DNA from: Acidobacteriota bacterium
Lineage (GTDB): Bacteria > Acidobacteriota > Vicinamibacteria > Vicinamibacterales > SCN-69-37
Direction of reading: 5' to 3'
Assembly: GCA_016716905.1 (NCBI GenBank)
Contig: JADJUS010000004.1
Location: forward strand, 1,163,603 to 1,227,602
Length of the DNA stretch: 64,000 bases
In this document: one piece after another, positions 13,057 to 30,390 of the stretch
How the letters are laid out: every line of letters begins with the position of its first letter
Numbering within the stretch: position 1 is the first letter of the stretch
Made by a program: the position numbers and the translations under genes
Notes under the pieces: generated by a model
Told to the model about the DNA's origin: nothing
Databases searched by the model: none
What the model saw: only the letters and a program-made list of their open reading frames with translations

Positions 13057-13066
13057 CGACGCGTGT

Positions 13067-13195: not shown

Positions 13196-13228
13196 GCTGC
13201 GGTCGTGTAAGATTGCCCGTAATCCGAC

Positions 13229-14839
13229 ATGGTTGGGCACTCCCGGACCCGAATCTGGCGCACGCTTCTCTCGGTGGCGCTCGTGTGCTGTGTGGGAACC
13301 GGTGGCACAGGTGATCGCGTTTCCGCGCAGGCGCAGCCGCAGTTCGCGGACACCGGGACCATTCCCATTCGTGTCGTCAACGGCCGTGTGATCGTGCTGA
13401 CGGACCTGGTGGGTCTGCGTTACACGAACGAAGCGAGCTTCGAGATTTCCTTCGAGTATCCGGATGCGCTGACGCTGCATCCGGATCAGTACGGCTGGCT
13501 GGGGCTGGATCCCAATGACCTCGGCCTGGGCGAGTCGCCACTGATTCACATCCTCATCTCGCCTGGGATCAAGTTGTCGATCCCCGCAAAAGAGGTGGTC
13601 GCCGAGACCTCAGAAGAACGTGTGGCGTTCCAGAACGCGATGACCAAGCTTCACTCGGCCGACATGGGTGAGCGCAAACTCAAGGGGACCATCGGCATTG
13701 GGTTGCTGAAGAAGTACTTCGTCACGCTCGACCTTGTGGAGAAGCAGCTCATCCTGGCGCCCCCCAAAGACACTGGCGAGGCGTCTGCCACGGCCGACCT
13801 CGCGGATGTGGTCATCACCCCGTTTGAGTACGCCAACAACCGTATCCAGGTCGGCCTCAGCTACGGCGACGACCGCCGCGGTGTTCTCGCCATCGGCGGC
13901 GCCAATTACGACACCGTGATCGATTCGCGCGTGACGAAGCCGCTGGGCAAGCCCGCCGGTGACGTCAGTCCGCTGTTCGTGGCGGACTCGGGCACCGCCG
14001 GCAAGCGCCTGGATCTGTCGCGGTCGCTGGCGTTCCGCCCGCGTGCGTTCGGGCTGGCCGCCACGCCCGGGGTCGATAGTCCGCTGGTCATCACCGGCGT
14101 CAACTTCCTTGAGCAGTTTCGCATCGAACTCGACTGGAACAACCAGCGCCTGGCCCTCACGCAGAAGGGCATCCCCAGGTATCCCCAACAGGACTTTGCG
14201 TTCTTCGAGGCTGAAAGCCGAGGCACGCCCGAGGCCCTGGAAGGCTACCTGACGAAGTATCCGAAAGAGCGGCTGAGCGCTGATGCTGCTGCGCTGCTGG
14301 TGAAGTCGCGGCTTGATGCCGCCGGGTCTGCAGACGCGGACGTCCTGAAGGCTATGCAGTGGGCTGTCAACACAGCCGGCGTCGGCCGCCGCACCGAGAC
14401 GTGCCTCGAGTACGCGATGAGCTTTGGTGAAATGCCCGGCCGCACCGACCTGGCCATCGCCGCGGGGAAAGAGGGGTTGAAGTACTCGCGCGAAGCGTTT
14501 GACGCCCGCGTGGTGTACGACCTGCACCACCTGCTCGGGCAGCTTCACATGAAGCAGTCGAAGTGGACCGACGCCTGGAAGCACCTGCTCTCGGCGGCGT
14601 TCATGGCGCCTGACGATCTGGAAATCGCGCTCGATTTGGCGCGCGTCTATGACAAACAAGGGCAGAGCCGGCGCGCCTACGCGCGCTACAAGCGCGTGGC
14701 AGCCGCGGGCGGGGTGCCTCCCGAGATCGCCGTCGAAGTAAAAAGCGCGATGGACCGCATCCGCGTGTTGCTGCCGAAGGATGATCCTCTGCTGCGCGAC
14801 GAAAAGGCTGCTGCTGGAAAAGGTGGAGGCGGCCGCTGA
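13229..14839 (+). CDS. secreted hypothetical protein, two beta-rich modules (possibly degenerate retropepsin-like) + C-terminal TPR-like helices; first gene of the operon
   Basis: Signal peptide MVGHSRTRIWRTLLSVALVCCVGTGG. Two modules end in ...KKYFVTLDLVEKQLILAPP and ...EQFRIELDWNNQRLALTQ. The helical C-terminus ends DLARVYDKQGQSRRAYARYKRV. The stop overlaps the next start (TGATG). Confidence 0.7.
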   Translation: MVGHSRTRIWRTLLSVALVCCVGTGGTGDRVSAQAQPQFADTGTIPIRVVNGRVIVLTDLVGLRYTNEASFEISFEYPDALTLHPDQYGWLGLDPNDLGLGESPLIHILISPGIKLSIPAKEVVAETSEERVAFQNAMTKLHSADMGERKLKGTIGIGLLKKYFVTLDLVEKQLILAPPKDTGEASATADLADVVITPFEYANNRIQVGLSYGDDRRGVLAIGGANYDTVIDSRVTKPLGKPAGDVSPLFVADSGTAGKRLDLSRSLAFRPRAFGLAATPGVDSPLVITGVNFLEQFRIELDWNNQRLALTQKGIPRYPQQDFAFFEAESRGTPEALEGYLTKYPKERLSADAAALLVKSRLDAAGSADADVLKAMQWAVNTAGVGRRTETCLEYAMSFGEMPGRTDLAIAAGKEGLKYSREAFDARVVYDLHHLLGQLHMKQSKWTDAWKHLLSAAFMAPDDLEIALDLARVYDKQGQSRRAYARYKRVAAAGGVPPEIAVEVKSAMDRIRVLLPKDDPLLRDEKAAAGKGGGGR

Positions 14840-16347
14840 TGGCGCAGGGACCGGTCCTTCAACAGCAACTCAATGCACTGGCCACGCGCGCTCAGCGCAG
14901 CCTCGGCCGGTGGGCGTTCGCGCGCGACCTTCGCATGACCGTGCGCGACTCACTCGTGTGGCTGCTGGTTGCACCCATCCTCCTGTTCAGCGCGCAAGTC
15001 GTGATGCTGCTCGTTGGTCGCGGGCCTCTGGCATGGCCCGCCATGGTGTGGGTGCTGCTCGCAGTGGCCGGACCGGTCGCCTATGTGGCCGTTCGCATGG
15101 CATCGCTCGCGAAGGGGCGGCACCTCGACCGTCGCGCGTGCCTTGGCGCGTTTGACCTGCAGCTCACCAGCAACGATCGGCTGGTGACCGCCGATGAATT
15201 TCTCGCCGCCGGCGCATCCGACCACTTCCGGCAGGCGGCGATTGACGATGCCGCGGATCACATCGCTCGGGCGGGCGCCACGACGCTCGAAGAAAAGGCG
15301 CTGCCGGCATGGGCCATCTCGCGGCGCAGTTGGGCGGCCACAGTCGCCGCCGCGGCTCTGATCGTCGGCGCGTTGTGGCTTGGTGATGTGGCGTCGGGCA
15401 TCCGGAATGCACCGGATGCGGAAACGGTTTTGACCACCGCCGACCTGCAGACGGTACCGGCGCGTGTGGCGGCGGCATTGCTCGATCTGCGGCCCAATCC
15501 GCCGAGGCCCGATCGCCCCGAGGCCGCCGAGGCGGTGCCGGCGAACGCCTCGCAGCCCTCGGCTGATGCGTCGCCGAAGACGCCGAGGACGGATCAGGAG
15601 GCCGATGGCCAGTCACACGCCGGCGGTCAGGCGAGCAGCAAATCGGCGAGCCAGGCGATGAGCAGCAGCGGAACGCCGTCCAACCAGCAGACACCATCGC
15701 AGCCCCTTGAAGAAGACCCGCCACAGCCGCAGGACGCAGCGGCCACCACGCAGGCGAAAAAGGCCGAGGGGAAAAAAGGCCAGCAGCAGGCGTCGTCTGC
15801 CACGTCAGGCCAAGGCCAGTCCAAGTCATCCAGCAGCGATTCAAATTCCATCCCCGCCACCGACCAGCCCGATCGCGCCGGCGCGAACAAGGATGACGGG
15901 AAGGACGAAGAGGGGATGCAGGACGAGGAAGAGGAAGAGAAGACGAGCGGTGTGGAGCGGCCGTCATTGCGTCGCAACAAACCGCCGGTCGATCGCAACC
16001 TCTCGAATCGCCCTGCCACCGACCAGGCGGGTCCCAACGCGAACGGGCGTAGCGGACCCGGCGGTCGCAAGAAAACGCGCGGCGTGCCCGCGATGATCCT
16101 GGGTGTGCCAACGCCCGACCGCATTCAGGGGATGACCAACCCCGGCCGCTCGAAGGTGACACAGGAGAACTCGACGCCGAAGGAAGAACCGCAGTCGGCG
16201 CTGACCGCCGAGGAGCGGGCCGCGCGCGAAAATCCCTTCGGCTACATCGAGCACCCGGTGCTGCGGCCATGGATGCAGACCCTGGTCGAGAAGTATTTCC
16301 TGCAACTGCGTGGGAAGACTGAGCTTCCCCCAATCAGAAAAGAGTGA
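14839..16347 (+). CDS. membrane protein with ~250-aa S/Q/P/D/E-rich disordered region and conserved C-terminal tail
   Basis: Three to four hydrophobic helices (LVWLLVAPILLFSAQVVMLLV, MVWVLLAVAGPVAYVAV, ATVAAAALIVGALWL). A low-complexity stretch follows, then NPFGYIEHPVLRPWMQTLVEKYFLQL. It sits 4 nt upstream of moxR. Confidence 0.75.
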   Translation: MAQGPVLQQQLNALATRAQRSLGRWAFARDLRMTVRDSLVWLLVAPILLFSAQVVMLLVGRGPLAWPAMVWVLLAVAGPVAYVAVRMASLAKGRHLDRRACLGAFDLQLTSNDRLVTADEFLAAGASDHFRQAAIDDAADHIARAGATTLEEKALPAWAISRRSWAATVAAAALIVGALWLGDVASGIRNAPDAETVLTTADLQTVPARVAAALLDLRPNPPRPDRPEAAEAVPANASQPSADASPKTPRTDQEADGQSHAGGQASSKSASQAMSSSGTPSNQQTPSQPLEEDPPQPQDAAATTQAKKAEGKKGQQQASSATSGQGQSKSSSSDSNSIPATDQPDRAGANKDDGKDEEGMQDEEEEEKTSGVERPSLRRNKPPVDRNLSNRPATDQAGPNANGRSGPGGRKKTRGVPAMILGVPTPDRIQGMTNPGRSKVTQENSTPKEEPQSALTAEERAARENPFGYIEHPVLRPWMQTLVEKYFLQLRGKTELPPIRKE

Positions 16348-16351
16348 CGTG

Positions 16352-17371
16352 ATGACAACCACAACAGGCGCGGCCGAGGCGCGTGAAGCGGCGGCGCGGT
16401 TCCGCACGGTGTATGCGGATATCAAGCGGCGCGTGAACCAGATGATGGTGGGCCAGGACGAGATCGTGGACGGCGTCATGACCGCGCTCCTCGCCGGCGG
16501 CCACGTGCTGCTCGAGGGCGTCCCCGGGCTGGGTAAGACGATGCTCGTGCGGTGCCTGAGTTCGGCAATTGAAACCAAGTTTTCGCGCATCCAGTTCACG
16601 CCCGACATGATGCCCGCCGACATTCAGGGCACCTGGGTGCTGATGGAGAACGATCAGGGACGCCACGACCTGCGATTCCAGGAAGGTCCGCTCATCGCGA
16701 ACCTGGTGCTGGCCGACGAAATCAACCGCGCCACGCCCAAGACGCAGTCGGCGTTGCTCGAAGCGATGCAAGAGCGTCAGGTCACCGTGGGCAAGCGCAC
16801 GATCAAGCTGGACGAGCCTTTTTGCGTGCTCGCGACCCAGAACCCGGTGGAGCAGGAAGGCACGTATCCGCTCCCGGAAGCGCAGCTCGACCGTTTCCTG
16901 CTGAAGCTTGTCGTCGGTTACCCGAAGGAAGAGGACTACAGCGCCATCCTTGACCGTACGATCGGCGACCACGAAGTGACGATTGAGCCGGTGACCAATG
17001 CCGCGGAAATCGTGCGGCTGCGGCATATCGTCCGCGCGGTGCCGGTGCCGGCGCATGCGCAGCAATACGCCATTCAGGTGGTGATGGGCACGCAGCCTGG
17101 CAGCCCGTATGCGCCCAAGAAGGTCAACGAGTATGTCGCGCTCGGCTCCAGCCCGCGTGGCGCGCAGTCGCTGTTGCTGGCCGCCAAGGTGCGGGCGCTG
17201 GTCAACGGCCGATTTGCCGTGAGCATCGACGACATCAAGCACCTTGCGCTGCCGGTGCTGCGTCACCGGTTGCTCATCAATTTCCATGGGCAGTCCGATC
17301 GCGTGACCGATGCAGATATTGTGGCGGCGGTGCTGGCGGCTGTCAGAGAGCCGCTCGAAGTTGCTTCATGA
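16352..17371 (+). CDS. MoxR-family AAA+ ATPase
   Basis: Walker A LLEGVPGLGKT, Walker B LVLADEINRATPKTQSALLEAMQE, then ATQNP...EAQLDRF. Length and order are typical of AAA_3/MoxR. Start trimmed from 16310 to the ATG at 16352. Confidence 0.92.
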   Translation: MTTTTGAAEAREAAARFRTVYADIKRRVNQMMVGQDEIVDGVMTALLAGGHVLLEGVPGLGKTMLVRCLSSAIETKFSRIQFTPDMMPADIQGTWVLMENDQGRHDLRFQEGPLIANLVLADEINRATPKTQSALLEAMQERQVTVGKRTIKLDEPFCVLATQNPVEQEGTYPLPEAQLDRFLLKLVVGYPKEEDYSAILDRTIGDHEVTIEPVTNAAEIVRLRHIVRAVPVPAHAQQYAIQVVMGTQPGSPYAPKKVNEYVALGSSPRGAQSLLLAAKVRALVNGRFAVSIDDIKHLALPVLRHRLLINFHGQSDRVTDADIVAAVLAAVREPLEVAS

Positions 17372-18273
17372 GCGCGGCCCCCATTCCGTTCGACAAACTC
17401 TTTGACCCGGGTTTCCTCGCCTCGCTCTCGCACCTGAGCATCACCGTGCAGCGCGTGGCGGCGGGGGGCCGGTTTGGAGATCGCCTGTCGAAGGACCTGG
17501 GAGCCGGCATCGAATTCCGTGACTATCGCGGCTATTCCCCCGGTGACGACCCGCGCGCGATCGACTGGAACATCTACCGGCGGCTCGGCAAGGTGTTCCT
17601 GCGGCTGTATGAAGAGCAGCAGGACCTGCCGCTGTATCTCATGCCCGACGTCTCCACGAGCATGTTTCACGAGCCGGAGCCGCGCGCACTGACGGCGCTG
17701 CGCACGGCACTCGCGCTGGCGACCATCAGCCTGTCGCATCACGACTCGACGGCGCTTTTTCCGTTCGCGGAAAAAATGGAGATGCGCGTGAAGTCCATGT
17801 CCGGCAAGGCCAGCACCATGGCATTTGCCGAGCATCTGGCCCGGTTGTCGCCCCCGGCTGAGGCAGGCACGAATCTGTCGGCCGCACTTCGAAGGCTGGC
17901 CGATATGAACCTGCGCCGCGGCCTGCTGGTAGTGATCAGTGACTTCTTCGATCCGGCCGGCCTCGATGCCATCCGTGATGCGCTCAGGAGCATCCGGCAC
18001 CGGATGTTGTTCGTGCAGCTCGTCCGCCCCTCCGATGAACAGCCCAACCTGGACGGCGATCTCAGGCTCGTGGACTGTGAGACGGGCGAGGCGGCCGAGA
18101 TCACCATCACGCCTCATGTGCTGGAGCGGTATCGCGACGCGTACGCGCAGTTCAATCGCGACCTCGCGGCGCTTGTGAAGTACCACCACGGTGGGTTGCT
18201 GCGTCTTGATGTGGAAGAGGACCTGGTCACGCAGCTCAACACGCTGTTTGCCGCCGGAAGCCTCGTGGTATGA
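17368..18273 (+). CDS. DUF58 domain protein (MoxR partner)
   Basis: GIEFRDYRGYSPGDDPRAIDWNIYRRLGK signature. ATGA overlap with moxR. Confidence 0.88.
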   Translation: MSAAPIPFDKLFDPGFLASLSHLSITVQRVAAGGRFGDRLSKDLGAGIEFRDYRGYSPGDDPRAIDWNIYRRLGKVFLRLYEEQQDLPLYLMPDVSTSMFHEPEPRALTALRTALALATISLSHHDSTALFPFAEKMEMRVKSMSGKASTMAFAEHLARLSPPAEAGTNLSAALRRLADMNLRRGLLVVISDFFDPAGLDAIRDALRSIRHRMLFVQLVRPSDEQPNLDGDLRLVDCETGEAAEITITPHVLERYRDAYAQFNRDLAALVKYHHGGLLRLDVEEDLVTQLNTLFAAGSLVV

Positions 18274-20036
18274 CCTTCGCGAATCTGTCGGCGCTCGGGG
18301 TGGTGGCGGGCCTGGCCGGGCTGGCCGCGCTGCTGTTCGCGTTGCAGCAACTTCGCACCCGCTACCGCAACGTGACCGTCGTCACCACCTTGTTCTGGAA
18401 GCAGGTGGTGCACGAAGCGCCGGTCAGAAAACTGCGTGACAAATTTCGCCACCCGCTCGCCTACGCCCTGGTGCTCGCGATTTGCTCGCTCCTGTGGCTC
18501 GCCGTGGCCGAGCCGCAATTCGGTCGTCGGCCGGATCAGACATTCCACATCCTGGTGCTCGACGGATCGGCGGGCATGGCCGCCGGAAACCGGTTCGCCG
18601 ACGCTGTGGACGCGCTCGAACGGCAGGTCGCCCGTTTGCCCAGCGACCGGCGCCAGGTGATCTGGAGCGGCGCGGACACTCGACCGTTGCTCAACCCTGG
18701 TGAACACGCGCTGCTCTTGCGCGCGCGCCTGGACCGGTTGGCGCCGCAGGCCGCCCCGGCGTCGCTTGAGCGGCTGCTGCGGCAGCTCAGTGCGACCTCG
18801 GCCAATGGCGGCAGTGAGTCGCCCACATCGATTCTGGTGTTTGGAGACGCCCCCGTTCGGAAACAGGTACTGGACCTGGTCCCCGCGTCGATGACGGTGA
18901 AGCGGGCCACCGCGCCGGCGCCGCTTGCGGGCAACAGCGGCATCACGGCGCTTGGGGTGTCTGATGCCGCTTCCGGCGCCTGGGACAAGGTGGACGTCTT
19001 CGTGCAGGTGCAAAGCACAGGCGACCGCCGCGCGGCACCGGTCGTGACGGCGGCGAATGCGCCCGGTGTCCGAATCGAAGTCAACGGACAGGCTGTGCCA
19101 GGCAACGCGATCGCGCGTGTCGGCCAGGGCTACGTTCTGTCTGACGTGCCGGCCGCGGGCGGCCTCCTGACCGCACGGGTTGTTGATGACCGATCAGGCG
19201 CCGACAGCCTTCCACTCGACGACGTGGCCCGCCTGCGATTGCCCACCAAGCCCATTCTCAGCGTGCAACTCTCGTCGTCATTGCAGGCCGTGCTCGGGCC
19301 GCTGCTTGAGGCGGACGCCGGCGTGACGCTCGTCGCGGAGCAGGCCGATGTGGTCATCCGGCGGAAAGGCGAGTCGGTGGGCGGCAACGCGCCCGCGCTT
19401 GAGTTCGTGCCTGCGGCGTCCCAGACCCAGGCGTTCCTGTTGACGCATCCGGATTCCCTGAGTTCGAGTGCGGTGTTCACCAACGCGGTCGCCGACATCG
19501 GGTTGCAGCAGATCGACGCGATGAGCCTGGCGCGCTCGTCTGGCCGTCCGATCGAAGTCTCAATCACGTCCGGCAGTCAGTGGCGCTTCTCCGTGTGGGA
19601 GGAACTGCTCGCGGACGAGTTCGACTTCACACGGTCTCGCGCCTTCCCGCTGTTTGTGGCCAACGCGGTGCGCTGGCTCGCCGATACGGAGAGCTGGCAT
19701 CCGTATGTCGCCGCCGGCCGGCCGCTCATCACGTCTTCCACCGGTCGTAGCACTGAGATTCTCAACGCCGCCGGCCGCGTGCTGGATCCCATCGGCGCCA
19801 GTTTTGTTCCCGTCGTCGCAGGCGACCTCAAGGTGAACGGACGTGCGGCGCCGTTGTCGGTCTCGCTGCTCGACGCCGAAGTGACGACCGGTGCGCGCGA
19901 CGAGTCATTGGCGATAGCGACGTTGGCGCCGGTCGATCTCACGCCGGCGACGGGGCTCGTCACGGGCCTGTTAATCCTCGCGCTGCTGCTCCTCGCGGCC
20001 GAGTGGTACTTCTTCCAGATGGGCCGGATGCCGTAG
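18270..20036 (+). CDS. BatA-N (aerotolerance-regulator N-terminal, double-TM) domain membrane protein
   Basis: N-terminus MTFANLSALGVVAGLAGLAALLFALQQLRTRYRNVTVVTTLFWKQVV fits the BatA N-terminal pattern. A C-terminal TM helix is present (LVTGLLILALLLLAAEWYFF). ATGA overlap with the DUF58 gene. Confidence 0.78.
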   Translation: MTFANLSALGVVAGLAGLAALLFALQQLRTRYRNVTVVTTLFWKQVVHEAPVRKLRDKFRHPLAYALVLAICSLLWLAVAEPQFGRRPDQTFHILVLDGSAGMAAGNRFADAVDALERQVARLPSDRRQVIWSGADTRPLLNPGEHALLLRARLDRLAPQAAPASLERLLRQLSATSANGGSESPTSILVFGDAPVRKQVLDLVPASMTVKRATAPAPLAGNSGITALGVSDAASGAWDKVDVFVQVQSTGDRRAAPVVTAANAPGVRIEVNGQAVPGNAIARVGQGYVLSDVPAAGGLLTARVVDDRSGADSLPLDDVARLRLPTKPILSVQLSSSLQAVLGPLLEADAGVTLVAEQADVVIRRKGESVGGNAPALEFVPAASQTQAFLLTHPDSLSSSAVFTNAVADIGLQQIDAMSLARSSGRPIEVSITSGSQWRFSVWEELLADEFDFTRSRAFPLFVANAVRWLADTESWHPYVAAGRPLITSSTGRSTEILNAAGRVLDPIGASFVPVVAGDLKVNGRAAPLSVSLLDAEVTTGARDESLAIATLAPVDLTPATGLVTGLLILALLLLAAEWYFFQMGRMP

Positions 20037-20043
20037 TGACGTC

Positions 20044-22596: not shown

Positions 22597-22598
22597 TC

Positions 22599-23084: not shown

Positions 23085-23088
23085 CCGC

Positions 23089-26000
23089 ATGCATGTGTTC
23101 GTAGTCGTTTCCCTGTTCGCCGGCCTGCTGGGCACCGTTCCCCAGCAGGCGCGGACGATCACCGTACCCGTGCGGATCGAGCCGCGGGTGGTTGAGCGGC
23201 TGTACAACGAGGCCATCATCAGGGACGGGTCCATCGACCCGCTGGTCGGGCAACTGGGCGCGCTGTGTGCGGATGTCGCGCGGCCGAAACGTTCGCGTGC
23301 AAACGCGTGCCTGCTGCGCAGCCACCTCGAGTGGCGGCACGGACGGATGGCGCCGGCCATGGCTGCGGCTGACGAGGGACTCGCCGTTGATCCGTACGAC
23401 GACATGGTGTTTCACAAGGCGCGGCTGTTCGACGCGTCTGGCAAGATGGACGAGACGCGCGAGTGGTACCAGAAGGCGCTGTCGCTCACGACCAACCCGC
23501 AGCTGAAGGAGACCATCCGCCTCCGCCTGACATTCACTGAAGTCATCGCGAAGGATGTGCAGGGCCTGGTGGCGTTGGCGAAAGCCAGTCCGCGTGACTT
23601 CAGGAATCGCGCGGCGATCGCGCTCGCGATTCTCGACTTCGACAAAGAGGCGGCGGACCTGTACCAGGTCTTCGGTGAAGGCACCGACCGGTTTCGGCAC
23701 CATATCCGGGTGGCCCAGTGGGCCATCCAGGCGGGCGACGCACCCAAGGCGCAGACCGAAAGCTGGCAGGCGGTACAAACCGCGACCTTCGATCGCGATC
23801 GCAACTATGGGCTGAGCCTGCTGGTGGAAGCCCACACGCTGGACAAATCACTCGACAAGCTCCTGGACCGGTTTGCGCAGCAGCCCACGCTTTCCCCGGA
23901 AGCCCAGAGCGTGCGCATCGATCTGTTGCGCCAGACGGGGCAGTACGACAAGGCCATCGAACTCTTCAAGAGTGCGAATGGCCAGCAGCTCGGTCCTGAG
24001 ATGCGCCGCGAGTTGTTGCGGATGTACCGCGACGCCGGGCAGGATGCCGCCATGGTGGCCGAATATCGCCGCCTCATTTCAAGTGAGCCGGCGCTCACCG
24101 ACTGGGTGGAGGGCCTGAGCCAGTACTACCTGGAGCAAGGCGACCAGCAAAGCGCACGCGCCTTGTGGAAGGACTTCCTCGATCGCAACACCGTGGTCGG
24201 CACGTTGCTCATCGGCAGCGATGCGATGACCGACTTTGGCCTGCACGATCTGGCGGTGGCCGCCACTGAAAAGGCCCTCGCCAACAGTCCAGGCATCGAA
24301 GACGCTGCGCAGGTCCGCCTCGCGCAATTCGAACTCCATCGTCAGCGCGGGGCCAACGCAGATGCCGAGGCTGCTCTGGCGGCGCTCGATGCGCTGCTGC
24401 CTGCCCAGTCACCCTTCAGAACGGAGTTGGCAGACGCGTACGAGCGCATCCAGAAACCACAGCTCGCCGCCACCACACTGGAGCGCCTCTCTGCCAGCAA
24501 GGGCGGCCTGAGTATTGACGAACGCATGCGCCTGGCCTGGCTCTTCGATTCAACCGGTCGGCGAGACGATGCCCTGCTGATCTGGCGGGAGTTGTGGAAT
24601 AGCGAGAGCCTGGCGGCACGGCGCAAGCTGGTGGAAGAACGGCTGCTGATGCTGGCTGCGGAACTGGGCACGCTCGGCGAACTCGCGGTGGACCTGGAAG
24701 AGAAACTCGCGAATGGCACCGCCGTCCCTCGCGACGTCAGCTTGCTCGTGAGCATCTACACCAAGGTGGGCGACTCGGTCTCGGCCATCGAGGTGGTGAC
24801 CAGCGCGGCAGCCCAGAAGGGCAATGCGAAGACCGAAGTCGAGAGTCTGAAAGAGCAGGCGCAAATCTACCTGGCGCTCGCCGAGTATCCCGACTTCACC
24901 CGTGTGACGCGACGGCTGATGGAGGTCGATCCCGACCGGAAGGTTGACTATCTCCAGTCGTTGTTGTTGAACCAGATCGAAGCCGGCGCCGATGGCGTGC
25001 AGGATGGCCAGGACGGCACCGTTCAGTTACGCGAGTGGCTGGGCCAACTCAGGAAAGTGGGCGGCGATGCCGTGGGCGCCGAGTTCGAAGCCGGCGTGCT
25101 TGAGATGGCGGGCTTCCGCGATCAGGCGCTGGAATCGTATCGCCGGGCGCTTGCGCAGCACCCCGAGCGCGCCGACGACCATCTGCTGCTCGCAGACCTG
25201 CTGCGCCAGGCCGGCCGTCAGGCCGAGGCCGTGACGAGCCTGCAGTACGTGACCGAAACGGCCGAGAGCGACGAGCTGTTCCTCGTGGCCATCGACGGCA
25301 TCACCAACATGCGCGCCGGCGAGACCACCATCAAGTGGGCGCAGCGGCGCGCGCTGGAGCGTCTCACGTCGCGCGATGACAAGTTGTATCTCTACGAGAT
25401 GCTGGCCGAGCTGGCCGAGGAGACCAAAGACGCCAAGGCCTACATCGCGACGCTTGAAACGTCGCTGGCGCACGCCGACAGCCGCCGGTCGCACGTGCTG
25501 CGCGAACTGCTGGCCGCCACGGCCGAGGTCACTACGTACGAAGCCAGCCTTCGCCTGGCCAATCCAGAGGCGGCACTCAACGTGGCGTACGCCAGGCGCC
25601 TCATTGCGCTGGGTGAAGAGCTGCCGCCCGACGTGTACGTGGATCTTGGCCGTACGTTCATCAAGATGAACGATCCGGCAGCCGCGAGACGGGCGTTCGA
25701 CCTCGCCGTGGATCGCACCGGCCGGACGTCGGTGGTGGTGGACGCCGCCAAGTTGTTTGAGCGGGGCGGATTTGATCGCGAGGCCATCAGGGAATACGAG
25801 CGCGCGCTGGTGGCCAACAGTAGCGACCTCGAAACGATGGTGAGGCTGGCGCGCCTGCGTGAACGTGCCGGTGCGGTGGACACCGCCAACGAGCTCTACC
25901 TGCGCGCCCTCCTCGGCGTCCTGGGCCGTCAGAACCGGAAGATCGAAGGGAGCGGACCGGCCCCGGCCCTCGAGACTCAGGTGACGTTTGAATACAAGCG

Positions 26001-29000
26001 GTACTACCAAATCCTGCTGAGTGGGGTGCTCGCGACGCTGCCGCAGGCGACGGCGCCGGCCGGCGCCACCGTGGCGCGCCTGGCTCCGATTGAAGCGGCG
26101 TTCGATCAGGAACTGCGTCAGGTGGCCGCGTCAGAAACGACGACCGCGCCCCTCGGACATTTCCCGCGCCTGGCCGTGTATACCCAGACGTTACGCGCGT
26201 TGGCGTATGGCGCTGGCGTGCCGGCCGTGTCCGATCGCGCCGATGCGGCACTGCGCCGGCAGTTCAGCGCGGATCCGAGCGTGGCGGCGCAGGCCGTGCA
26301 GGAGCGCGAACGCTGGGGTTATTCGACGCCCGAAGCCGCGTCGGCGAATCGGCCGATGGACAGCGCCGACTATATGCGGGATGTCGGTGTGGCGTTGAGC
26401 GCCGGCGATCAGGACGCCGCGCTCACGGCCTACCGGCAGTGGGCCCGGTTCGCCGGCTCGCCCAAGCCGCCGATTTTCCTGGGCACCATTGAGTTGCCGG
26501 ATCGATCGCCGGGCATTCCGGAAGTGGCGACCCACGCCTGGCAGCGTCTCGATGAACGTCACTTCGGTAGCCTCGCGCAACACATCCAGGGCATCATCGC
26601 CGACGACGACACGTACGCTGAGAAGCTCGTGCTCGATTTGATCTACCAGTACGAAGTGCCCGAGGTGCCGATCCTCACTCGCGTCGAGCAGGTGCTGGGG
26701 CAACCGTTGATCGCCGAGGAACGGTTGTGGCGGCTGGTCAATCAGCGCAAGGACTGGAGCCTGCTGAACGTGGCGTACGTCATCAGCCGTCTCGCTCCGG
26801 ATCGCCAGATCGATTTCATCGATCGGTATGCGAAGGCATCCGAACTCAATTGGCTGACGTTGCTCAAGTCGTGGGGCATCGTGCTGCAGAAGCCCATGGA
26901 CGCCCCGCGCGCCGCCCGCTTCATGACGGTGGTGAAAGCCGCGCTGGTGGGGAGTCTCAAGCGAGGCAGCGGCAGCGCGTTGCTGCCCAATTTCATGATC
27001 TATACGTTCTCGGCAGGGATTGCTCCCGTCAACGCGCCACTCGTGGAGGAGATTGAACAGTTCCTCGCCGAAAAGCATCCCCAGGTGTTCAAGGTGGGCT
27101 ACTGGAAGGCGTCCCTTTTGCGCGACCTTGGTCGCGACCAGGAAGCCATTGCCGCGTTTGTGGACGCCGCGCTGCAGATGTATGTGCCGCTGCCGCAGCC
27201 GGGCACCGCCATCCCGCAAGGCGCTCCGAGTCCGTACGCGTACAGCGGCTTCGTCAGTGCGTTCGCACCATTCCTGCTGCCGAAGTACAGAGGGGAGTTG
27301 CTGGCGCTGCTGGAACAGAAGGAGTCGGCGCCGGCGGGCCTCACAGAGGCGCTCATCAGCCTGCGCATGGAGTTGAGCCGCTTCGACCCGACGGGTGACT
27401 CGCGACAGCTCATGGCCGCTCTGCAGGGGTTGGCCGATCGCCATCCGAAAAACGAGCAGGTGCGCAACCTGCTGCATCCGCTGTACGACCAGTGGGGGAA
27501 CACGAACAAGGCGATTGAGGTACTGACCGAGTTGACGCGCCTGAAGCCCGACAATCGCGAGTACCGCTACAAATTGATTTCGCTGTGGCAGAAGCTCGAC
27601 TACCCCGAGAACGTGGTCAAGGTCGCCGGCGCGCAGACCGTGGACGAACTGGCGCCGCCGGTGGTGCGCAACTACTACATGGAGTCGGTGACCGGTGCGC
27701 CGACCGTGCGTTTCCCGACGCTGAAACGCGCACTTGATCAAATTAAGGCGTTGGCAACCGGTGGTGATCCGAAAGAGGCGGCCATGGGGTTGCGGACGTT
27801 GCTGCAGACGCTGCCGCCGGCCGGAATGTCGATCAACGAGTTTGCCCAGGCGCGCGACCAGGCCGACCCGTATCTGTACATCCGCGACTTCCTCATGCTC
27901 GATGGCGAGCCGCATCCAAAGACCGCCGACGCGCCGGAGTCGTCGGCCCCCGCAGTCCCGGTTGCGGCTGGCGGGATGGTCGCATTGCGGCCGGCCGCTC
28001 CGGCCGGCACGCCGCCAACGGCGAGCCGGACGCTGAACACGTACGACCGCTTGATGAAGTCGCTCGAATTGACAACCGCGGAGGTGACGCCGCGGGCCGC
28101 CAAACTCACGGAGGTCGTGGGGCGATCGGGATTTGGCATCGCCGAGCTTGAAGCGTTTCTCAGCAATCTGCGGGCCGCGGACATCGACAAGCAGTACGTC
28201 TTCATCAACATGCTGGTGGACGCCTATGTCAGCGGCGGTCGGGCCGATGACGAACTGCAGCGGCGATCGGCCGATGCAGCGTCCGGCCAGATGGGCCAGA
28301 AGAACGCGACCGTCTGGCTCGGCCTCGCAGCGAGGCAGCCGGGCGCACGTGCGAAGGACCTGCTACAGACTGCCGAAGCCGGTGGTCTGTTGAGCCGCGC
28401 CCAGAGTGCGTTGTCACAGATGTTCCTGGCGCGCTTGTATGCAGCGGCGGGCCAGCCGGACAACGCGCTGAAGACCTACATCCGCGTGGCCACAATGGTG
28501 CTGGCGGGCGCCGCAAATAACGTGCAGCCGAACCTGACCCAGACCGATGCCTACGGTCGCGACAACGGGCTGATGTTGTTTACCGGCCTTGGGTTGTTCG
28601 ACGAGGCGCGGCCGCGCCTTGACGCCGCCGGCCTGGACGCGCTTGTCGCGGAGATGCTGGCCCTGAGCCGGCCACCGGTCGGCCCGGTGGTGCAACAGAT
28701 GCACGCGCGCTTCGTGAACATCTTGTATGTGCGTGCGACAGGAGCGGGCCTGAGCCTGCCGTCGCTGCAGAAGGAAGCCGCGGCCATGCAGGTGACCTCG
28801 GCGTGGCCCAGGGCCGAGGTGCTGCAGGCGTCGTTTGTGCGGGCGCACATGGGCTCGCTCGATGAAGCGCTTCGGTTATTGCAGACGACGCTGAGCCGCG
28901 ACTTTGAGACGCGCGACATGATGACGAGCGCGCAATCAAACGCGCAGTTTGCCTGGCGGCAGTACCAGATCGCACTCGGACTAGCCGGCGACGCGCAGTT

Positions 29001-29601
29001 GCTGGGTCCATTCGGCACTAGCGGCGCCGGTGTGGAACAACTCAAGCCCCTGTTTCCGGTCAAGGCTGACGCGTGGCCGGGCGCCGGCGCGTGGGTGGCC
29101 GGTGTCGCGCGCGCGTTGCCTTTGTGGCTTGAGCAGGGGGCCGCCAACCCGGATGCCGGCATTCAAGCCTTGTCGCTTGTGGCCCTGCGCCTCCACCAGA
29201 TGGGGGATCGAGAGGGCGCTCAGACCGCCGCGCGCCACCTCACGGCGGTGCTTCGCCGGAGTCCTGTCTCGTTGAAGGCGTCCACACTGGCGATGTCGGT
29301 GGGCGACCACGTGGGGGCGGCGGTTGATCTGCCCGTCCTGCAGGAACTGACGCGGCAAGGCCGCCTGGATCTGAGTCGCGTGCAGTTGGTCATCACGCGA
29401 ACCGCAGCGGCCGACGGCGCCGAGGCCGCGCTTCGCCTGGGCGAGGTCGCCGCCCAGTCCACGTCCAACGCAGATCTGCTCAAGCAGCTCATCAGCATCG
29501 CGCAGACCGCCGGCAACGCCCAGGAAGCGCAGCGCTGGACCGCCCGGCAAGCCGAAGCCGACGCCGCCCGCGCCCAGTTGAAAAAAGCGCCACCGAAGTA
29601 G
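23089..29601 (+). CDS. giant (2170 aa) TPR/alpha-solenoid repeat protein with N-terminal signal or anchor
   Basis: A single uninterrupted 6.5-kb ORF. N-terminus MHVFVVVSLFAGLLGTVPQQA. Repeated A/L/Y-rich helical hairpins run throughout (for example ...KARLFDASGKMDETREWYQKALSL..., ...YYLEQGDQQSARALWKDFL...). Starts 4 nt after the preceding gene. Confidence 0.85.
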   Translation: MHVFVVVSLFAGLLGTVPQQARTITVPVRIEPRVVERLYNEAIIRDGSIDPLVGQLGALCADVARPKRSRANACLLRSHLEWRHGRMAPAMAAADEGLAVDPYDDMVFHKARLFDASGKMDETREWYQKALSLTTNPQLKETIRLRLTFTEVIAKDVQGLVALAKASPRDFRNRAAIALAILDFDKEAADLYQVFGEGTDRFRHHIRVAQWAIQAGDAPKAQTESWQAVQTATFDRDRNYGLSLLVEAHTLDKSLDKLLDRFAQQPTLSPEAQSVRIDLLRQTGQYDKAIELFKSANGQQLGPEMRRELLRMYRDAGQDAAMVAEYRRLISSEPALTDWVEGLSQYYLEQGDQQSARALWKDFLDRNTVVGTLLIGSDAMTDFGLHDLAVAATEKALANSPGIEDAAQVRLAQFELHRQRGANADAEAALAALDALLPAQSPFRTELADAYERIQKPQLAATTLERLSASKGGLSIDERMRLAWLFDSTGRRDDALLIWRELWNSESLAARRKLVEERLLMLAAELGTLGELAVDLEEKLANGTAVPRDVSLLVSIYTKVGDSVSAIEVVTSAAAQKGNAKTEVESLKEQAQIYLALAEYPDFTRVTRRLMEVDPDRKVDYLQSLLLNQIEAGADGVQDGQDGTVQLREWLGQLRKVGGDAVGAEFEAGVLEMAGFRDQALESYRRALAQHPERADDHLLLADLLRQAGRQAEAVTSLQYVTETAESDELFLVAIDGITNMRAGETTIKWAQRRALERLTSRDDKLYLYEMLAELAEETKDAKAYIATLETSLAHADSRRSHVLRELLAATAEVTTYEASLRLANPEAALNVAYARRLIALGEELPPDVYVDLGRTFIKMNDPAAARRAFDLAVDRTGRTSVVVDAAKLFERGGFDREAIREYERALVANSSDLETMVRLARLRERAGAVDTANELYLRALLGVLGRQNRKIEGSGPAPALETQVTFEYKRYYQILLSGVLATLPQATAPAGATVARLAPIEAAFDQELRQVAASETTTAPLGHFPRLAVYTQTLRALAYGAGVPAVSDRADAALRRQFSADPSVAAQAVQERERWGYSTPEAASANRPMDSADYMRDVGVALSAGDQDAALTAYRQWARFAGSPKPPIFLGTIELPDRSPGIPEVATHAWQRLDERHFGSLAQHIQGIIADDDTYAEKLVLDLIYQYEVPEVPILTRVEQVLGQPLIAEERLWRLVNQRKDWSLLNVAYVISRLAPDRQIDFIDRYAKASELNWLTLLKSWGIVLQKPMDAPRAARFMTVVKAALVGSLKRGSGSALLPNFMIYTFSAGIAPVNAPLVEEIEQFLAEKHPQVFKVGYWKASLLRDLGRDQEAIAAFVDAALQMYVPLPQPGTAIPQGAPSPYAYSGFVSAFAPFLLPKYRGELLALLEQKESAPAGLTEALISLRMELSRFDPTGDSRQLMAALQGLADRHPKNEQVRNLLHPLYDQWGNTNKAIEVLTELTRLKPDNREYRYKLISLWQKLDYPENVVKVAGAQTVDELAPPVVRNYYMESVTGAPTVRFPTLKRALDQIKALATGGDPKEAAMGLRTLLQTLPPAGMSINEFAQARDQADPYLYIRDFLMLDGEPHPKTADAPESSAPAVPVAAGGMVALRPAAPAGTPPTASRTLNTYDRLMKSLELTTAEVTPRAAKLTEVVGRSGFGIAELEAFLSNLRAADIDKQYVFINMLVDAYVSGGRADDELQRRSADAASGQMGQKNATVWLGLAARQPGARAKDLLQTAEAGGLLSRAQSALSQMFLARLYAAAGQPDNALKTYIRVATMVLAGAANNVQPNLTQTDAYGRDNGLMLFTGLGLFDEARPRLDAAGLDALVAEMLALSRPPVGPVVQQMHARFVNILYVRATGAGLSLPSLQKEAAAMQVTSAWPRAEVLQASFVRAHMGSLDEALRLLQTTLSRDFETRDMMTSAQSNAQFAWRQYQIALGLAGDAQLLGPFGTSGAGVEQLKPLFPVKADAWPGAGAWVAGVARALPLWLEQGAANPDAGIQALSLVALRLHQMGDREGAQTAARHLTAVLRRSPVSLKASTLAMSVGDHVGAAVDLPVLQELTRQGRLDLSRVQLVITRTAAADGAEAALRLGEVAAQSTSNADLLKQLISIAQTAGNAQEAQRWTARQAEADAARAQLKKAPPK

Positions 29602-30340: not shown

Positions 30341-30390
30341 AGGCCGTGGATCACAAGTCGGCGGCATGACCCAGCACGCTGACGAGGGGG

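What the first reader, a model, noticed from the sequence alone, without database searches (positions are those of the whole stretch)
13229..29601. Nine-gene translationally coupled MoxR / DUF58 / BatA-N / double-VWA operon, extended by four unrelated membrane or secreted proteins and a 2170-aa TPR giant
Seen: nine same-strand ORFs are packed with overlaps or gaps of -4 to +7 nt. These are TGATG at 14837-14841, a 4-nt gap before moxR, ATGA overlaps at 17368 and 18270, then gaps of 7, 2 and 4 nt. REP clusters bound the block on both sides (13067-13195 and 29602-30340), so it looks like one 16.4-kb transcription unit. The core is a MoxR AAA+ ATPase (GVPGLGKT), a DUF58 protein, a BatA-N double-TM protein, and a BatA-N protein with two MIDAS-bearing VWA domains (DESGS, DTSGS). 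Established: this core is the Bat / aerotolerance-type module of Bacteroides, Leptospira and others, and its molecular mechanism is still unresolved. Inference: this version adds a secreted two-module beta-rich/TPR protein, a membrane protein with a ~250-aa acidic/Ser/Gln-rich disordered region, a DUF1772-like four-TM protein and a 2170-aa TPR scaffold. Together these suggest a large envelope-spanning, chaperone-driven (MoxR-VWA) assembly rather than a simple stress operon. It is the most system-like uncharacterised unit in the window.
Basis: partly seen in the sequence, partly recalled or inferred. Interest (0 to 1): 0.72.

Follow-up and report, generated by a model that had tools for sequence, protein, structure and literature searches.

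The report
Conserved MoxR-driven periplasmic VWA–TPR gene cassette
This is a tightly packed eight-gene (not nine-gene) operon in a soil Acidobacterium; seven of its genes form an undescribed cassette shared by several bacterial phyla, which probably builds an ATPase-serviced protein platform on the outer face of the inner membrane and works with thiol-redox enzymes.

Summary
The block is real, but it holds eight genes, not nine. All seven junctions are as stated, and NCBI calls the same eight proteins (MBK9240447-54). The MoxR (AAA_3), DUF58, BatA-N/VWA-like and double-VWA proteins are confirmed.

Seven genes (g1-g2-MoxR-DUF58-g5-g6-TPR giant) keep the same order in about 25 genomes. These come from Acidobacteriota, Planctomycetota, Verrucomicrobiota and Gamma- and Alphaproteobacteria. 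The DUF1772 gene is a genus-level insertion.

New findings:
- g1 is a secreted two-lobed pepsin-fold protein that lacks the catalytic dyad, followed by a TPR domain.
- g2 is a 3-TM protein with a cytoplasmic helical domain, a disordered periplasmic tail and a conserved basic end motif.
- g6 and the TPR giant are fused in several planctomycetes.
- Predicted topology puts the VWA and TPR bulk in the periplasm, while MoxR and DUF58 are cytoplasmic.
- A Trx-fold partner recurs beside the cassette: Redoxin genes, a TPR-Trx(CPPC) gene next to DsbD here, or a Cys-less domain fused to g1.
- Some proteobacterial copies lie between a TonB-dependent receptor and an M16 peptidase.

Best reading: this is a Bat-like, inner-membrane-anchored periplasmic assembly serviced by MoxR/DUF58 and linked to thiol-redox maintenance. 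It is a new variant of a known kind, and its function is unproven.

The parts
8178..10145 (+). DsbD (thiol:disulfide electron transporter); conserved neighbour and candidate electron source for the adjacent Trx-like protein
   Evidence: Pfam DsbD_TM 1e-30, DsbD_N, Thioredoxin_7. The same gene sits at the same position in L001, L002 and L088.
10325..12193 (-).
   Evidence: NCBI protein MBK9240445, 622 aa. Sequence FTGSACPPCVAAD; weak DUF1223/TPR_2 hits. It is the divergent neighbour of g1 in L001, L002, L088 and L090. Its residues 318-630 are homologous to the C-terminal extension of planctomycete g1 (BLASTP E 1e-9; tblastn).
12259..13056 (+). D12-class (Dam-like) DNA methyltransferase; a lineage-variable insertion between up637 and g1, not part of the system
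   Evidence: Pfam MethyltransfD12 7.7e-38. Present in L090 but absent in L001, L002 and L088.
13062..13196 (.). REP-like inverted repeats in the 5' intergenic region
   Evidence: Arms 13067-13083 and 13180-13196 are 94% complementary. The element also occurs at 10292.
13229..14839 (+). g1: Sec-exported protein with a bilobal pepsin-like fold (about residues 43-312, no catalytic dyad) and a TPR-like helical domain (about 320-512)
   Evidence: AF2 model pLDDT 80, pTM 0.71. The top 50 Foldseek PDB hits are all A1 aspartic proteases, E ~1e-7, TM 0.42-0.47. The two lobes share a terminal motif (hhalign E 5e-5). No D[TS]G is conserved. No Pfam protease hit in the window protein or 10 orthologues.
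14839..16347 (+). g2: 3-TM protein with a cytoplasmic helical domain (invariant DRLVTADEF / F..AA..DA), a ~250-aa disordered acidic/Ser/Gln tail and a conserved basic C-terminal motif (NGRSGPGGRKKTRGVPAMILGVPxPD...NPGRSKVTQE)
   Evidence: Alignment A3; TM scan. AF2: residues 1-190 pLDDT 80-93, residues 200-470 below 50. No Pfam family in 25 homologues and no structural match.
16352..17371 (+). g3: MoxR-proper AAA+ ATPase (cytoplasmic)
   Evidence: AAA_3 1.9e-62 and AAA_lid_2 8e-17. Walker A GVPGLGKT and Walker B LADEINR. No TM segment.
17368..18273 (+). g4: DUF58 protein, a cytoplasmic VWA-like adaptor with a DxSxS motif (DVSTS)
   Evidence: DUF58 9.9e-35; VWA_CoxE and VWA_2 weak. Sequence. 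No TM segment.
18270..20036 (+). g5: BatA-N-type double-TM anchor, a periplasmic VWA-like domain with degenerate MIDAS (DGSAG) plus a beta-rich region, and a C-terminal TM
   Evidence: BatA 22.9 bits and VWA_2 26.1 bits, both just below cut-off. BatA is hit in orthologues L004, L007, L088 and L090. TM segments and K/R distribution.
20044..22596 (+). g6: double-TM anchor, VWA (DESGS), a GATase1-like domain with a second VWA (DTSGS) inserted, a beta region and a C-terminal TM; the bulk is periplasmic
   Evidence: VWA 7.4e-21 and GATase1_like weak. PDB profile hits: 49-181 VWA (5a8j), 282-397 and 592-661 GATase1-like (3rht, 2gk3, 3soz), 398-555 VWA. Invariant MIDAS residues. Topology.
22599..23084 (+). 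g7: DUF1772/Anthrone_oxy 4-TM protein; a genus-level insertion, not part of the conserved cassette
   Evidence: Pfam 28.7 bits against a cut-off of 27.3. Present only in L088/L089 at 88% identity. Absent in L001, L090 and all other loci.
23089..29601 (+). g8: 2170-aa exported TPR/alpha-solenoid protein; the N-terminal ~1080 aa are the conserved part
   Evidence: Many TPR families. Invariant residues cluster in residues 56-1077. Orthologues start with Sec signal peptides. It is fused to g6 through a second TM in L015, L016, L023, L024, L026, L027, L031, L033 and L034.
29617..30250 (.). Array of dispersed REP-like repeats downstream of the operon
   Evidence: Direct-repeat families D1-D6. The core 16-mer occurs 10 times in the window against 0.04 expected.

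Best explanation
The block is one operon of eight genes. Seven of them make a conserved cassette: g1, g2, MoxR, DUF58, g5, g6 and the TPR giant g8. The cassette most likely builds an inner-membrane-anchored complex that faces the periplasm.

Shown:
- The gene order, tight coupling and synteny across phyla.
- The domain content of the proteins.
- The g6-g8 fusions.
- The recurrent Trx-fold neighbours.

Inferred from sequence rules, plus one experimental precedent (Borrelia BB0173):
- g5 and g6 are held in the inner membrane by TM segments at both ends, with their VWA/MIDAS and GATase1-like bulk in the periplasm.
- g8 (TPR solenoid) and g1 (catalytically dead pepsin-fold cleft plus TPR) are exported there too.
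- Only MoxR, DUF58, the ~80-aa helical domain of g2 and short K/R-rich loops are cytoplasmic.

Proposed mechanism (inference):
1. The MoxR hexamer, with its VWA-like adaptor DUF58 (MIDAS DVSTS), engages the cytoplasmic face of the membrane subunits. The best candidate target is the invariant acidic DRLVTADEF segment of g2.
2. ATP hydrolysis is used to assemble or remodel the periplasmic platform.
3. On the periplasmic side, the TPR grooves and the dead protease cleft bind extended polypeptides. These may include the conserved basic C-terminal motif of g2.
4. The platform cooperates with a thiol:disulfide oxidoreductase. Here that is the CPPC protein at 10325-12193, probably fed by DsbD; elsewhere it is a Redoxin.
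5. The outcome would be keeping envelope proteins reduced or correctly folded.

This would be a larger, differently built relative of the Bat and RL3499-RL3502 type of MoxR operon. The DUF1772 gene is a recent passenger.
For: - Operon structure and gene count.
- Domain assignments.
- Synteny: the same seven genes in the same order in L001, L002, L004, L006-L011, L014, L017, L019, L021, L024, L027, L030 and L088-L093, spanning Acidobacteriota, Planctomycetota, Opitutaceae, Gammaproteobacteria and Emcibacter.
- Fusions: g6 and g8 are fused in nine loci, with two hydrophobic segments and a K/R-rich loop at the joint.
- Export of g8: its orthologues start with Sec signal peptides.
- Topology: the positive-inside pattern of g5 and g6 agrees with the experimentally mapped periplasmic VWA domain of BB0173 (PMC5700661).
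- g1: pepsin-like fold without a dyad.
- g2: ordered cytoplasmic/TM part plus a disordered tail and a conserved end motif.
- Thiol-redox link: Redoxin genes (WCGPC or WCGWC) directly flank the cassette in L008, L091, L092 and L093. TPR-Trx(CPPC) plus DsbD lie next to g1 in all Acidobacterial loci. A homologous Cys-less domain is fused to g1 in planctomycetes.
- Literature: Bat proteins were proposed to reduce periplasmic proteins or export reducing power, and to form a periplasmic complex (PMC3557215). MRP-type MoxR RL3499 affects envelope integrity and morphology (PMC3893208), and RL3499/RL3500 mutants are impaired on complex medium (PMC5118466). MoxR ATPases act with VWA cofactors as chaperone-like maturases (PMC3893208).
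Against: - There are no experimental data for any member of this cassette.
- How a cytoplasmic ATPase would act on periplasmic domains is unknown. The only cytoplasmic handles are short loops and the g2 domain, and no interaction was modelled.
- The Trx-fold neighbour is missing from the TonB/M16-flanked proteobacterial loci (L004, L005, L007, L012), and it has no cysteines in planctomycetes, so redox chemistry cannot be universal.
- Leptospira bat mutants showed no oxidative-stress phenotype (PMC3557215).
- The pepsin-fold call rests on an AF2 model with modest TM-scores (0.42-0.47) and has no sequence-level support.
- g1 is missing in L005 and L020, so it is dispensable in some lineages.
- The topology is predicted, not measured.
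Confidence: 0.45

Rival explanations
1. Periplasmic receiving and processing station for substrates imported through a TonB-dependent transporter. The cassette would hold or unfold an imported protein or peptide cargo for cleavage by a partner M16 peptidase, as an elaboration of protease-associated import systems.
For: In proteobacterial loci the cassette is directly preceded by a TonB-dependent receptor, which carries an STN domain in L004, L005 and L007. FecR is present in L005 and L012, and an ECF sigma factor in L005. The cassette is directly followed by a 900-950-aa M16 peptidase in L004, L005, L007 and L012. L093 also has a TonB receptor upstream. TBDT plus M16 pairs define protease-associated import systems (PMC6793856). 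Peptide-binding modules (TPR, dead pepsin cleft) would suit cargo handling.
Against: The window and all Acidobacterial, Opitutaceae and planctomycete loci lack an adjacent TBDT or M16 gene. The PAIS paper mentions no MoxR, VWA or TPR genes. The association is seen in only five loci of one phylum and may reflect shared ECF-sigma regulation rather than shared mechanism.
Confidence: 0.15
2. Purely structural envelope scaffold. The VWA and TPR proteins would form a static periplasmic lattice that maintains envelope integrity or cell shape, MoxR/DUF58 would be needed only once for its assembly, and there would be no client handling and no redox role.
For: [quoted passage not shown] The huge TPR solenoid and two-ended membrane anchoring suit a scaffold. 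The planctomycete Trx-like domain lacks cysteines.
Against: It does not explain the recurrent redox-active Trx/Redoxin neighbours with intact CxxC motifs. It also does not explain the conserved peptide-like motif of g2 or the cleft-bearing pseudo-protease.
Confidence: 0.2
3. A MoxR-vWA conflict (anti-phage or programmed-death) system of the ternary NTPase type.
For: The Pfam bpMoxR model hits MoxR at 7.5e-18. MoxR-vWA systems with TPR or beta-propeller sensors are described as conflict systems (PMC7159879, listed).
Against: AAA_3 scores far higher than bpMoxR (209 against 65 bits). There is no beta-propeller or effector domain. No PADLOC family matches beyond trivial AAA hits. The cassette keeps a stable chromosomal context and a broad, largely lineage-coherent spread, and most of its proteins are exported or membrane-bound.
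Confidence: 0.03
4. The eight genes are not one functional unit. The accessory genes would merely be packed next to a MoxR/DUF58/VWA core by genome compaction.
For: One of the eight, DUF1772, is indeed an unrelated recent insertion. A DNA methyltransferase has also been inserted just upstream in some relatives.
Against: g1, g2 and g8 keep their place and order across phyla at 25-40% identity. g6 and g8 are fused in nine loci. The overlapping stop/start codons are conserved.
Confidence: 0.04

Closest known systems
Bat (Bacteroides aerotolerance) operon and its spirochaete/Francisella homologues (MoxR, DUF58, BatA-E)
   Same: Both have an MRP-type MoxR, DUF58, membrane proteins with the BatA-N double-TM anchor and MIDAS-bearing VWA domains, and a TPR protein, in one co-directional cluster. 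A periplasmic complex is proposed for both, with a possible link to periplasmic reducing power (PMC3557215). The function of both is unresolved.
   Different: BatD and BatE (SH3) are absent. The VWA proteins are 588 and 850 aa with a GATase1-like domain and two-ended anchoring, instead of ~330-aa BatA/B. The TPR protein is 2170 aa. The cassette adds a pseudo-pepsin/TPR protein and a 3-TM protein with a disordered tail, neither of which has a Pfam family. The NCBIfam BatA model scores 26.6 against a cut-off of 380.
Rhizobium leguminosarum RL3499-RL3502 operon (MRP MoxR; envelope integrity and morphology)
   Same: It is a broadly conserved MoxR-led operon with membrane proteins, and mutants show envelope and growth-on-complex-medium defects. 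This gives the most relevant phenotype precedent.
   Different: It has four genes only. From the cited descriptions it has no TPR giant and no pepsin-fold protein. The sequences were not at hand, so homology of RL3501/RL3502 to g5, g6 or g2 was not tested.
Borrelia burgdorferi BB0170-BB0176 cluster (BB0173 VWA inner-membrane protein)
   Same: It combines MoxR, DUF58 and VWA membrane proteins. BB0173 is an inner-membrane protein whose VWA domain faces the periplasm (PMC5700661), which is the topology predicted here for g5 and g6.
   Different: Its proteins are small, single-VWA, Bat-type proteins, and it has none of the accessory genes.
MoxR-vWA-YebA (transglutaminase-like peptidase) operon proposed as a membrane-proximal degradation system
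   Same: It pairs MoxR and a DUF58-type vWA adaptor with a membrane-associated peptidase-fold protein (PMC3495828).
   Different: There the peptidase domain is cytoplasmic and often active. Here the peptidase-fold protein is exported, has the pepsin fold and lacks the catalytic dyad.
Protease-associated import systems (FusA/FusC, YddB/PqqL)
   Same: Proteobacterial copies of the cassette sit between a TonB-dependent receptor and an M16 peptidase.
   Different: The window itself has neither gene nearby, and known PAIS have no MoxR, VWA or TPR components.

Membership tests
Bat (aerotolerance) operon | MoxR (AAA_3) ATPase and a DUF58 gene at the head of the cluster | tested here: met
   AAA_3 1.9e-62; DUF58 9.9e-35; the two genes are adjacent with an ATGA overlap.
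Bat (aerotolerance) operon | BatA/BatB-type proteins: a BatA-N double-TM anchor plus a single VWA domain, about 330 aa | tested here: inconclusive
   g5 scores BatA 22.9 bits (cut-off 25.9) and VWA_2 26.1 bits (cut-off 27). g6 has two VWA domains but no BatA hit. NCBIfam VWA_BatA_Lepto scores 26.6 against 380. The sizes are 588 and 850 aa with extra domains. Orthologues of g5 do hit BatA.
Bat (aerotolerance) operon | BatD (oxygen-tolerance protein) and BatE (TPR plus SH3) present | tested here: not met
   No BatD or SH3 family among the Pfam hits of any of the eight proteins at E <= 0.01.
Bat (aerotolerance) operon | Aerotolerance or oxidative-stress phenotype | not testable with these tools
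   This needs mutants. Only indirect support is available, from the thiol-redox neighbours.
MoxR-proper (MRP) subfamily MoxR/VWA chaperone-like system | AAA_3 core with intact Walker A/B, an AAA lid, and an adjacent VWA-type cofactor | tested here: met
   AAA_3 and AAA_lid_2. GVPGLGKT and LADEINR. DUF58 with DVSTS lies next door. Subfamily definition as given in PMC3893208.
MoxR-vWA-beta-propeller ternary conflict systems | bpMoxR-type ATPase with a beta-propeller or effector partner | tested here: not met
   bpMoxR scores 64.8 bits against 209 for AAA_3. No propeller or effector domains. No PADLOC system hit.
Pepsin-like (A1) / retropepsin-like (A2) aspartic peptidases (for g1) | Bilobal double-psi-barrel fold made of two homologous lobes | tested here: met
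   The top 50 Foldseek hits are all A1 proteases, E ~1e-7, prob 1.0, TM 0.42-0.47, on a model with pLDDT 80. Lobe-lobe hhalign gives E 5e-5.
Pepsin-like (A1) / retropepsin-like (A2) aspartic peptidases (for g1) | A catalytic Asp-Thr/Ser-Gly in each lobe | tested here: not met
   At the positions expected from the strand pattern, lobe 1 reads FEYPDA (an acidic residue in most orthologues, but never D-T/S-G). Lobe 2 reads IGGANYDT, with Gly, Ser or Thr in place of Asp in all 13 orthologues aligned there. No protease Pfam or PDB sequence hit.
DUF1772 / Anthrone_oxy (for g7) | Pfam PF08592 match above the gathering score | tested here: met
   28.7 bits against 27.3. NCBI names it a DUF1772 domain-containing protein.
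   No Pfam family for g2, and no shared family among 25 homologues at E <= 0.1.
Protease-associated import system | A TonB-dependent transporter and an M16 peptidase encoded together with the system | tested here: not met
   Neither is adjacent in the window or in the Acidobacterial relatives. The pair is present only in proteobacterial loci L004, L005, L007 and L012.

The most novel reading that the evidence does not exclude
The cassette is an ATP-powered chaperone/repair machine for the ATP-free periplasm. Cytoplasmic MoxR/DUF58 would pull on the cytoplasmic domain of the 3-TM protein g2 and so transmit work across the inner membrane to a periplasmic holdase platform (TPR giant, dead-pepsin cleft, MIDAS modules). 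That platform would present oxidised or misfolded envelope proteins to a dedicated thioredoxin-fold reductase fed by DsbD. This would also give the long-sought mechanism of Bat-type operons.
Probability: 0.12. Interest if true: 0.85.

Novelty: new variant of a known kind. Interest (0 to 1): 0.55.

Why it matters
MoxR/DUF58/VWA operons of the Bat type are among the most widespread bacterial gene clusters that still lack a mechanism. This cassette is a larger, sharply defined version of them. It has seven conserved parts, and four of the eight proteins here are annotated only as 'hypothetical'.

The comparative data turn a vague 'stress operon' into testable statements:
- which parts are cytoplasmic and which periplasmic;
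- which proteins touch each other (the g6-g8 fusions, and the Trx-like domain fused to g1);
- which enzyme class it works with (thiol:disulfide oxidoreductases and DsbD).

If cytoplasmic ATP hydrolysis really drives work in the periplasm through g2, that would be a new way of energising envelope protein quality control.

The cassette also occurs in cultured bacteria where it can be tested: Stenotrophomonas sp. MMGLT7, Porticoccaceae LTM1 and Porticoccus sp. W117.

Tried and rejected
- Pfam, NCBIfam and PADLOC scans of g1 and g2 gave no family.
- Pfam on ten distant g1 orthologues gave only weak TPR hits and no protease family.
- A PDB sequence search with the g1 N-domain profile gave only chance hits.
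- A PDB sequence search with g8 gave nothing.
- Foldseek of the g2 model against PDB gave nothing below E = 2.
- Foldseek of the g1 model against the viral library returned only TPR look-alikes and was uninformative.
- The idea that the upstream 637-aa gene is a paralogue of window g1 was rejected (BLASTP E 0.06). It is instead homologous to the C-terminal extension of planctomycete g1.
- The ~890-950-aa genes downstream of g8 in planctomycetes were checked as possible M16 peptidases. They are unrelated: CotH, a histidine kinase and others.
- The promoter/terminator scan gave nothing usable.
- The look-up of P0073 (Pseudoxanthomonas) found no record.
- Vanderlinde 2011 (PMC3133104) is not held in the library.
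- Five literature searches found no paper on this cassette.
- The defence-system reading was rejected.

Full report
OBSERVATION. The + strand between 13229 and 29601 carries eight ORFs, not nine:
- g1, 13229-14839 (536 aa)
- g2, 14839-16347 (502 aa)
- g3 MoxR, 16352-17371 (339 aa)
- g4 DUF58, 17368-18273 (301 aa)
- g5, 18270-20036 (588 aa)
- g6, 20044-22596 (850 aa)
- g7, 22599-23084 (161 aa)
- g8, 23089-29601 (2170 aa)

Seven junctions join eight genes. An exact-sequence look-up shows that NCBI calls the same eight proteins as consecutive records MBK9240447-MBK9240454 of an Acidobacteria bacterium MAG on a 1.93-Mb contig. g1, g2, g5 and g8 are named 'hypothetical protein'. Close relatives are labelled Vicinamibacterales.

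Dispersed repeats flank the block. A 17-nt element forms inverted repeats at 13067-13196 and recurs at 10292. The array at 29617-30250 contains a 16-mer found 10 times in the window against 0.04 expected.

DOMAINS. Pfam and NCBIfam give the following.
- MoxR: AAA_3 at 1.9e-62 plus AAA_lid_2, with intact Walker A (GVPGLGKT) and Walker B.
- g4: DUF58 at 9.9e-35. Its sequence also carries a DxSxS motif (DVSTS).
- g5: BatA (22.9 bits) and VWA_2 (26.1 bits), both just below their cut-offs, with a degenerate MIDAS (DGSAG). Orthologues of g5 do reach BatA.
- g6: VWA at 7.4e-21.
- g7: Anthrone_oxy/DUF1772, just above cut-off.
- g8: many TPR families.
- g1: only weak C-terminal TPR hits.
- g2: nothing, also across 25 homologues.

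A profile search of g6 against PDB sequences gives its layout. It has VWA (49-181), then a GATase1-like domain (282-397 and 592-661) interrupted by the second VWA (398-555). Both DxSxS motifs of g6 are invariant or nearly so across 15 homologues.

SYNTENY. I looked up the contigs that encode g6 homologues. I also scanned one genome per GTDB species with a g6 profile and scored all loci with tblastn for each window protein.

The order g1-g2-MoxR-DUF58-g5-g6-g8 recurs in about 25 loci:
- Acidobacterial relatives (L001, L002, L088, L090);
- Opitutaceae (L008);
- many Planctomycetota, including Brocadiaceae and Isosphaeraceae (L006, L009-L011, L014, L017, L019, L021, L024, L027, L030);
- Gammaproteobacteria (L004, L093; partly L005, L012 and L018 Stenotrophomonas);
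- Emcibacter (L007);
- two unnamed 4-Mb chromosomes (L091, L092).

Identities to the window proteins fall to 25-40% for g1, g2 and g8, so this is conservation and not recent transfer of a block. More distant clusters (Sedimentisphaerales, Lentisphaeria, Victivallales, Clostridia) keep MoxR, DUF58 and a g6-like protein, and some also a fused TPR part. They largely lack g1 and g2 (L033 has weak matches).

g7 is found only in the 88%-identical relative (L088/L089). It is absent at 70-73% identity (L001, L090) and everywhere else. It is therefore a genus-level insertion between g6 and g8.

A profile search of g1 against 1.84 billion cluster representatives finds 106 at E <= 1e-30. They fall into a ~500-545-aa class and a ~760-830-aa class. 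The family is small and coherent.

FUSIONS AND TOPOLOGY. In nine loci, g6 and g8 are a single ORF of 1766-3151 aa: Rubripirellula L015, Rhodopirellula L016, and L023, L024, L026, L027, L031, L033 and L034. At the joint there are two hydrophobic segments separated by a K/R-rich loop. These correspond to the C-terminal TM of g6 and the N-terminal hydrophobic segment of g8. Free-standing g8 orthologues begin with ordinary Sec signal peptides.

In g5 and g6 the short N-terminus carries no charge and the TM1-TM2 loop holds 5-7 Lys/Arg. The region after TM2 has few or none, and basic residues follow the last TM. By the positive-inside rule, the VWA/GATase-like bulk and the TPR giant lie in the periplasm. 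This matches the experimentally mapped topology of the Borrelia Bat-type protein BB0173 (PMC5700661).

g1 has a signal peptide. MoxR and DUF58 have no TM segment. The cytoplasmic side therefore consists of MoxR, DUF58, short loops, and the g2 N-terminal region.

THE TWO UNKNOWN PROTEINS. g1 was modelled with 24 homologues (pLDDT 80, pTM 0.71).
- Residues ~43-312 form two beta-rich lobes.
- The best 50 PDB matches are all pepsin-family proteases such as renin, plasmepsins and proteinase A, with E ~1e-7, probability 1.0 and TM 0.42-0.47.
- The two lobes share the terminal motif G-x-[IL]-G-x-x-x-L-x-x-[YF]-x-[VI]-x-[LFI]-D (hhalign E 5e-5), as expected for a duplicated retropepsin-like unit.
- The catalytic D-T/S-G is absent. 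At the positions expected from the strand pattern, lobe 1 reads FEYPDA and lobe 2 reads IGGANYDT. Gly, Ser or Thr replaces the Asp in all orthologues.
- No sequence method sees a protease.
- I read g1 as a pseudo-protease, that is, a cleft that binds peptides, followed by a TPR-like helical domain (320-512).

g2 was modelled with 25 homologues.
- Residues 1-190 are confident helices. They comprise three TM segments and a cytoplasmic stretch carrying the invariant DRLVTADEF and F..AA..DA motifs.
- Residues ~200-470 are disordered and acidic/Ser/Gln-rich.
- Within that disordered tail, the near-invariant basic motif NGRSGPGGRKKTRGVPAMILGVPxPD...NPGRSKVTQE behaves like a short linear motif.
- No structure matches g2.

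In g8, the invariant positions are concentrated in the first ~1080 residues.

NEIGHBOURS. It has a thioredoxin-like, DUF1223-type domain carrying CPPC. It is preceded by DsbD at 8178-10145. Both are conserved next to the cassette in the Acidobacterial relatives whose contigs reach that far. In relatives that lack the inserted Dam-like methyltransferase (12259-13056), this gene is the divergent neighbour of g1.

Its residues 318-630 are homologous to the ~300-aa C-terminal extension that planctomycete g1 orthologues carry (25% identity over 327 aa, E 1e-9; alignment). That fused version has lost the cysteines.

Independently, AhpC-TSA/Redoxin genes with WCGPC or WCGWC motifs lie directly beside the cassette in L008, L091, L092 and L093. 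A Trx-fold partner is therefore recurrent in at least four lineages. By my own rough estimate, such genes make up well under 1% of a genome, so this is unlikely to be chance. A formal census was not run.

A second context class occurs in Proteobacteria. Here a TonB-dependent receptor lies upstream, with an STN domain, FecR or an ECF sigma factor in some loci, and an M16 peptidase lies downstream (L004, L005, L007, L012). L093 has both a TonB receptor and Redoxins.

HOW IT MOST LIKELY WORKS.

Shown:
- one tightly coupled operon;
- a seven-gene conserved core;
- the g6-g8 fusions;
- the Trx-like domain fused to g1 in planctomycetes;
- the recurrent thiol-redox neighbours.

Inferred:
- g5, g6 and g8 form an inner-membrane-anchored periplasmic platform. 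g1 and the tail of g2 probably belong to it too.
- Cytoplasmic MoxR, with its VWA-like adaptor DUF58, assembles or remodels that platform. This follows the general behaviour of MoxR/VWA pairs as chaperone-like maturases (PMC3893208).
- The invariant acidic segment of the g2 cytoplasmic domain is the best candidate docking site, because MIDAS sites are typically completed by an acidic ligand residue (established knowledge).
- The TPR grooves and the dead protease cleft are peptide-binding modules.
- The associated CxxC proteins suggest that the platform serves thiol-redox maintenance or folding of envelope proteins. This echoes the original proposal for Bat proteins (summarised in PMC3557215).
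- It also agrees with the envelope phenotypes of the RL3499-RL3502 operon.

Weak points: no interaction was modelled or measured, the Trx partner is not universal, and Leptospira bat mutants had no oxidative phenotype. I put this reading at about 0.45.

Rivals:
- a TonB-import/M16 processing station, 0.15;
- a purely structural scaffold, 0.2;
- a conflict system, 0.03. It is disfavoured because AAA_3 scores far above bpMoxR, there are no effector domains and PADLOC finds nothing;
- chance adjacency, 0.04.

COMPARISON AND NOVELTY. The cassette works like, and is related to, Bat-type MRP MoxR operons. It is not a Bat operon in the strict sense. BatD and BatE are absent, the VWA proteins have a different and larger architecture, the BatA models score below cut-off, and there are two extra protein families without any Pfam model.

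Searches of the held literature found only classic Bat, MoxR and PAIS papers and nothing on this arrangement. I rate it a new variant of a known kind.

It is interesting mainly for three reasons. It gives the unresolved Bat/MoxR-VWA problem concrete, testable structure. It may show how cytoplasmic ATP is used for work in the periplasm. It also occurs in cultivable bacteria.

Noticed in passing
window 12259-13056 (+): A D12-class (Dam-like) adenine methyltransferase gene sits between the Trx-like gene and g1. It is present in relative L090 but absent in L001, L002 and L088, so it is a mobile or lineage-variable insertion into the divergent promoter region.
   Followed up: partly
window 29602-33070: About 3.4 kb separate the g8 stop from the GFO_IDH_MocA oxidoreductase gene at 33074, against ~430 bp in the 88%-identical relative L088. 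The extra DNA is lower in GC (0.60) and holds the repeat array and an ORF (31678-32667) with no Pfam hit. It looks like an insertion.
   Followed up: partly
window 29636, 29697, 29744, 30073, 36921, 41177, 53796, 57212, 60225, 61691: A REP-like 16-mer, TTTCGTAGCGCGGCCT, occurs 10 times on both strands (0.04 expected), apparently in intergenic spots. It is a genome-wide dispersed repeat family of this Acidobacterium.
   Followed up: partly
L012 (Woeseiaceae MAG) 3304-22535: A rearranged version of the cassette reads FecR, TonB receptor, g2, g6, g8, M16 peptidase and then MoxR at the locus end. This suggests that g2-g6-g8 and MoxR-DUF58-g5 are separable sub-modules.
   Followed up: no
P0072 and P0075: Porticoccus sp. 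W117, a named and probably cultured strain, encodes two different g6 homologues (46% and 45% identity to the window protein) on different contigs, so it may carry two copies of the cassette.
   Followed up: no
L005 (Porticoccaceae LTM1, CP127080) and L020: g1 is missing from otherwise complete cassettes, so the pseudo-protease is dispensable in some lineages.
   Followed up: no
L009 19083-21761 and L014 19164-21848: In two planctomycete loci, a CotH-kinase/lamin-tail-domain protein of ~893 aa (65% identical between the two) directly follows the TPR giant on the same strand.
   Followed up: no
window 49997-52492, 54400-57183, 57400-60186: The rest of the window looks ordinary. It holds a BlaR1-type M56 peptidase, a MacB/FtsX permease and a Sortilin/BNR-repeat protein, and there is no second MoxR cluster among the large ORFs scanned.
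   Followed up: partly
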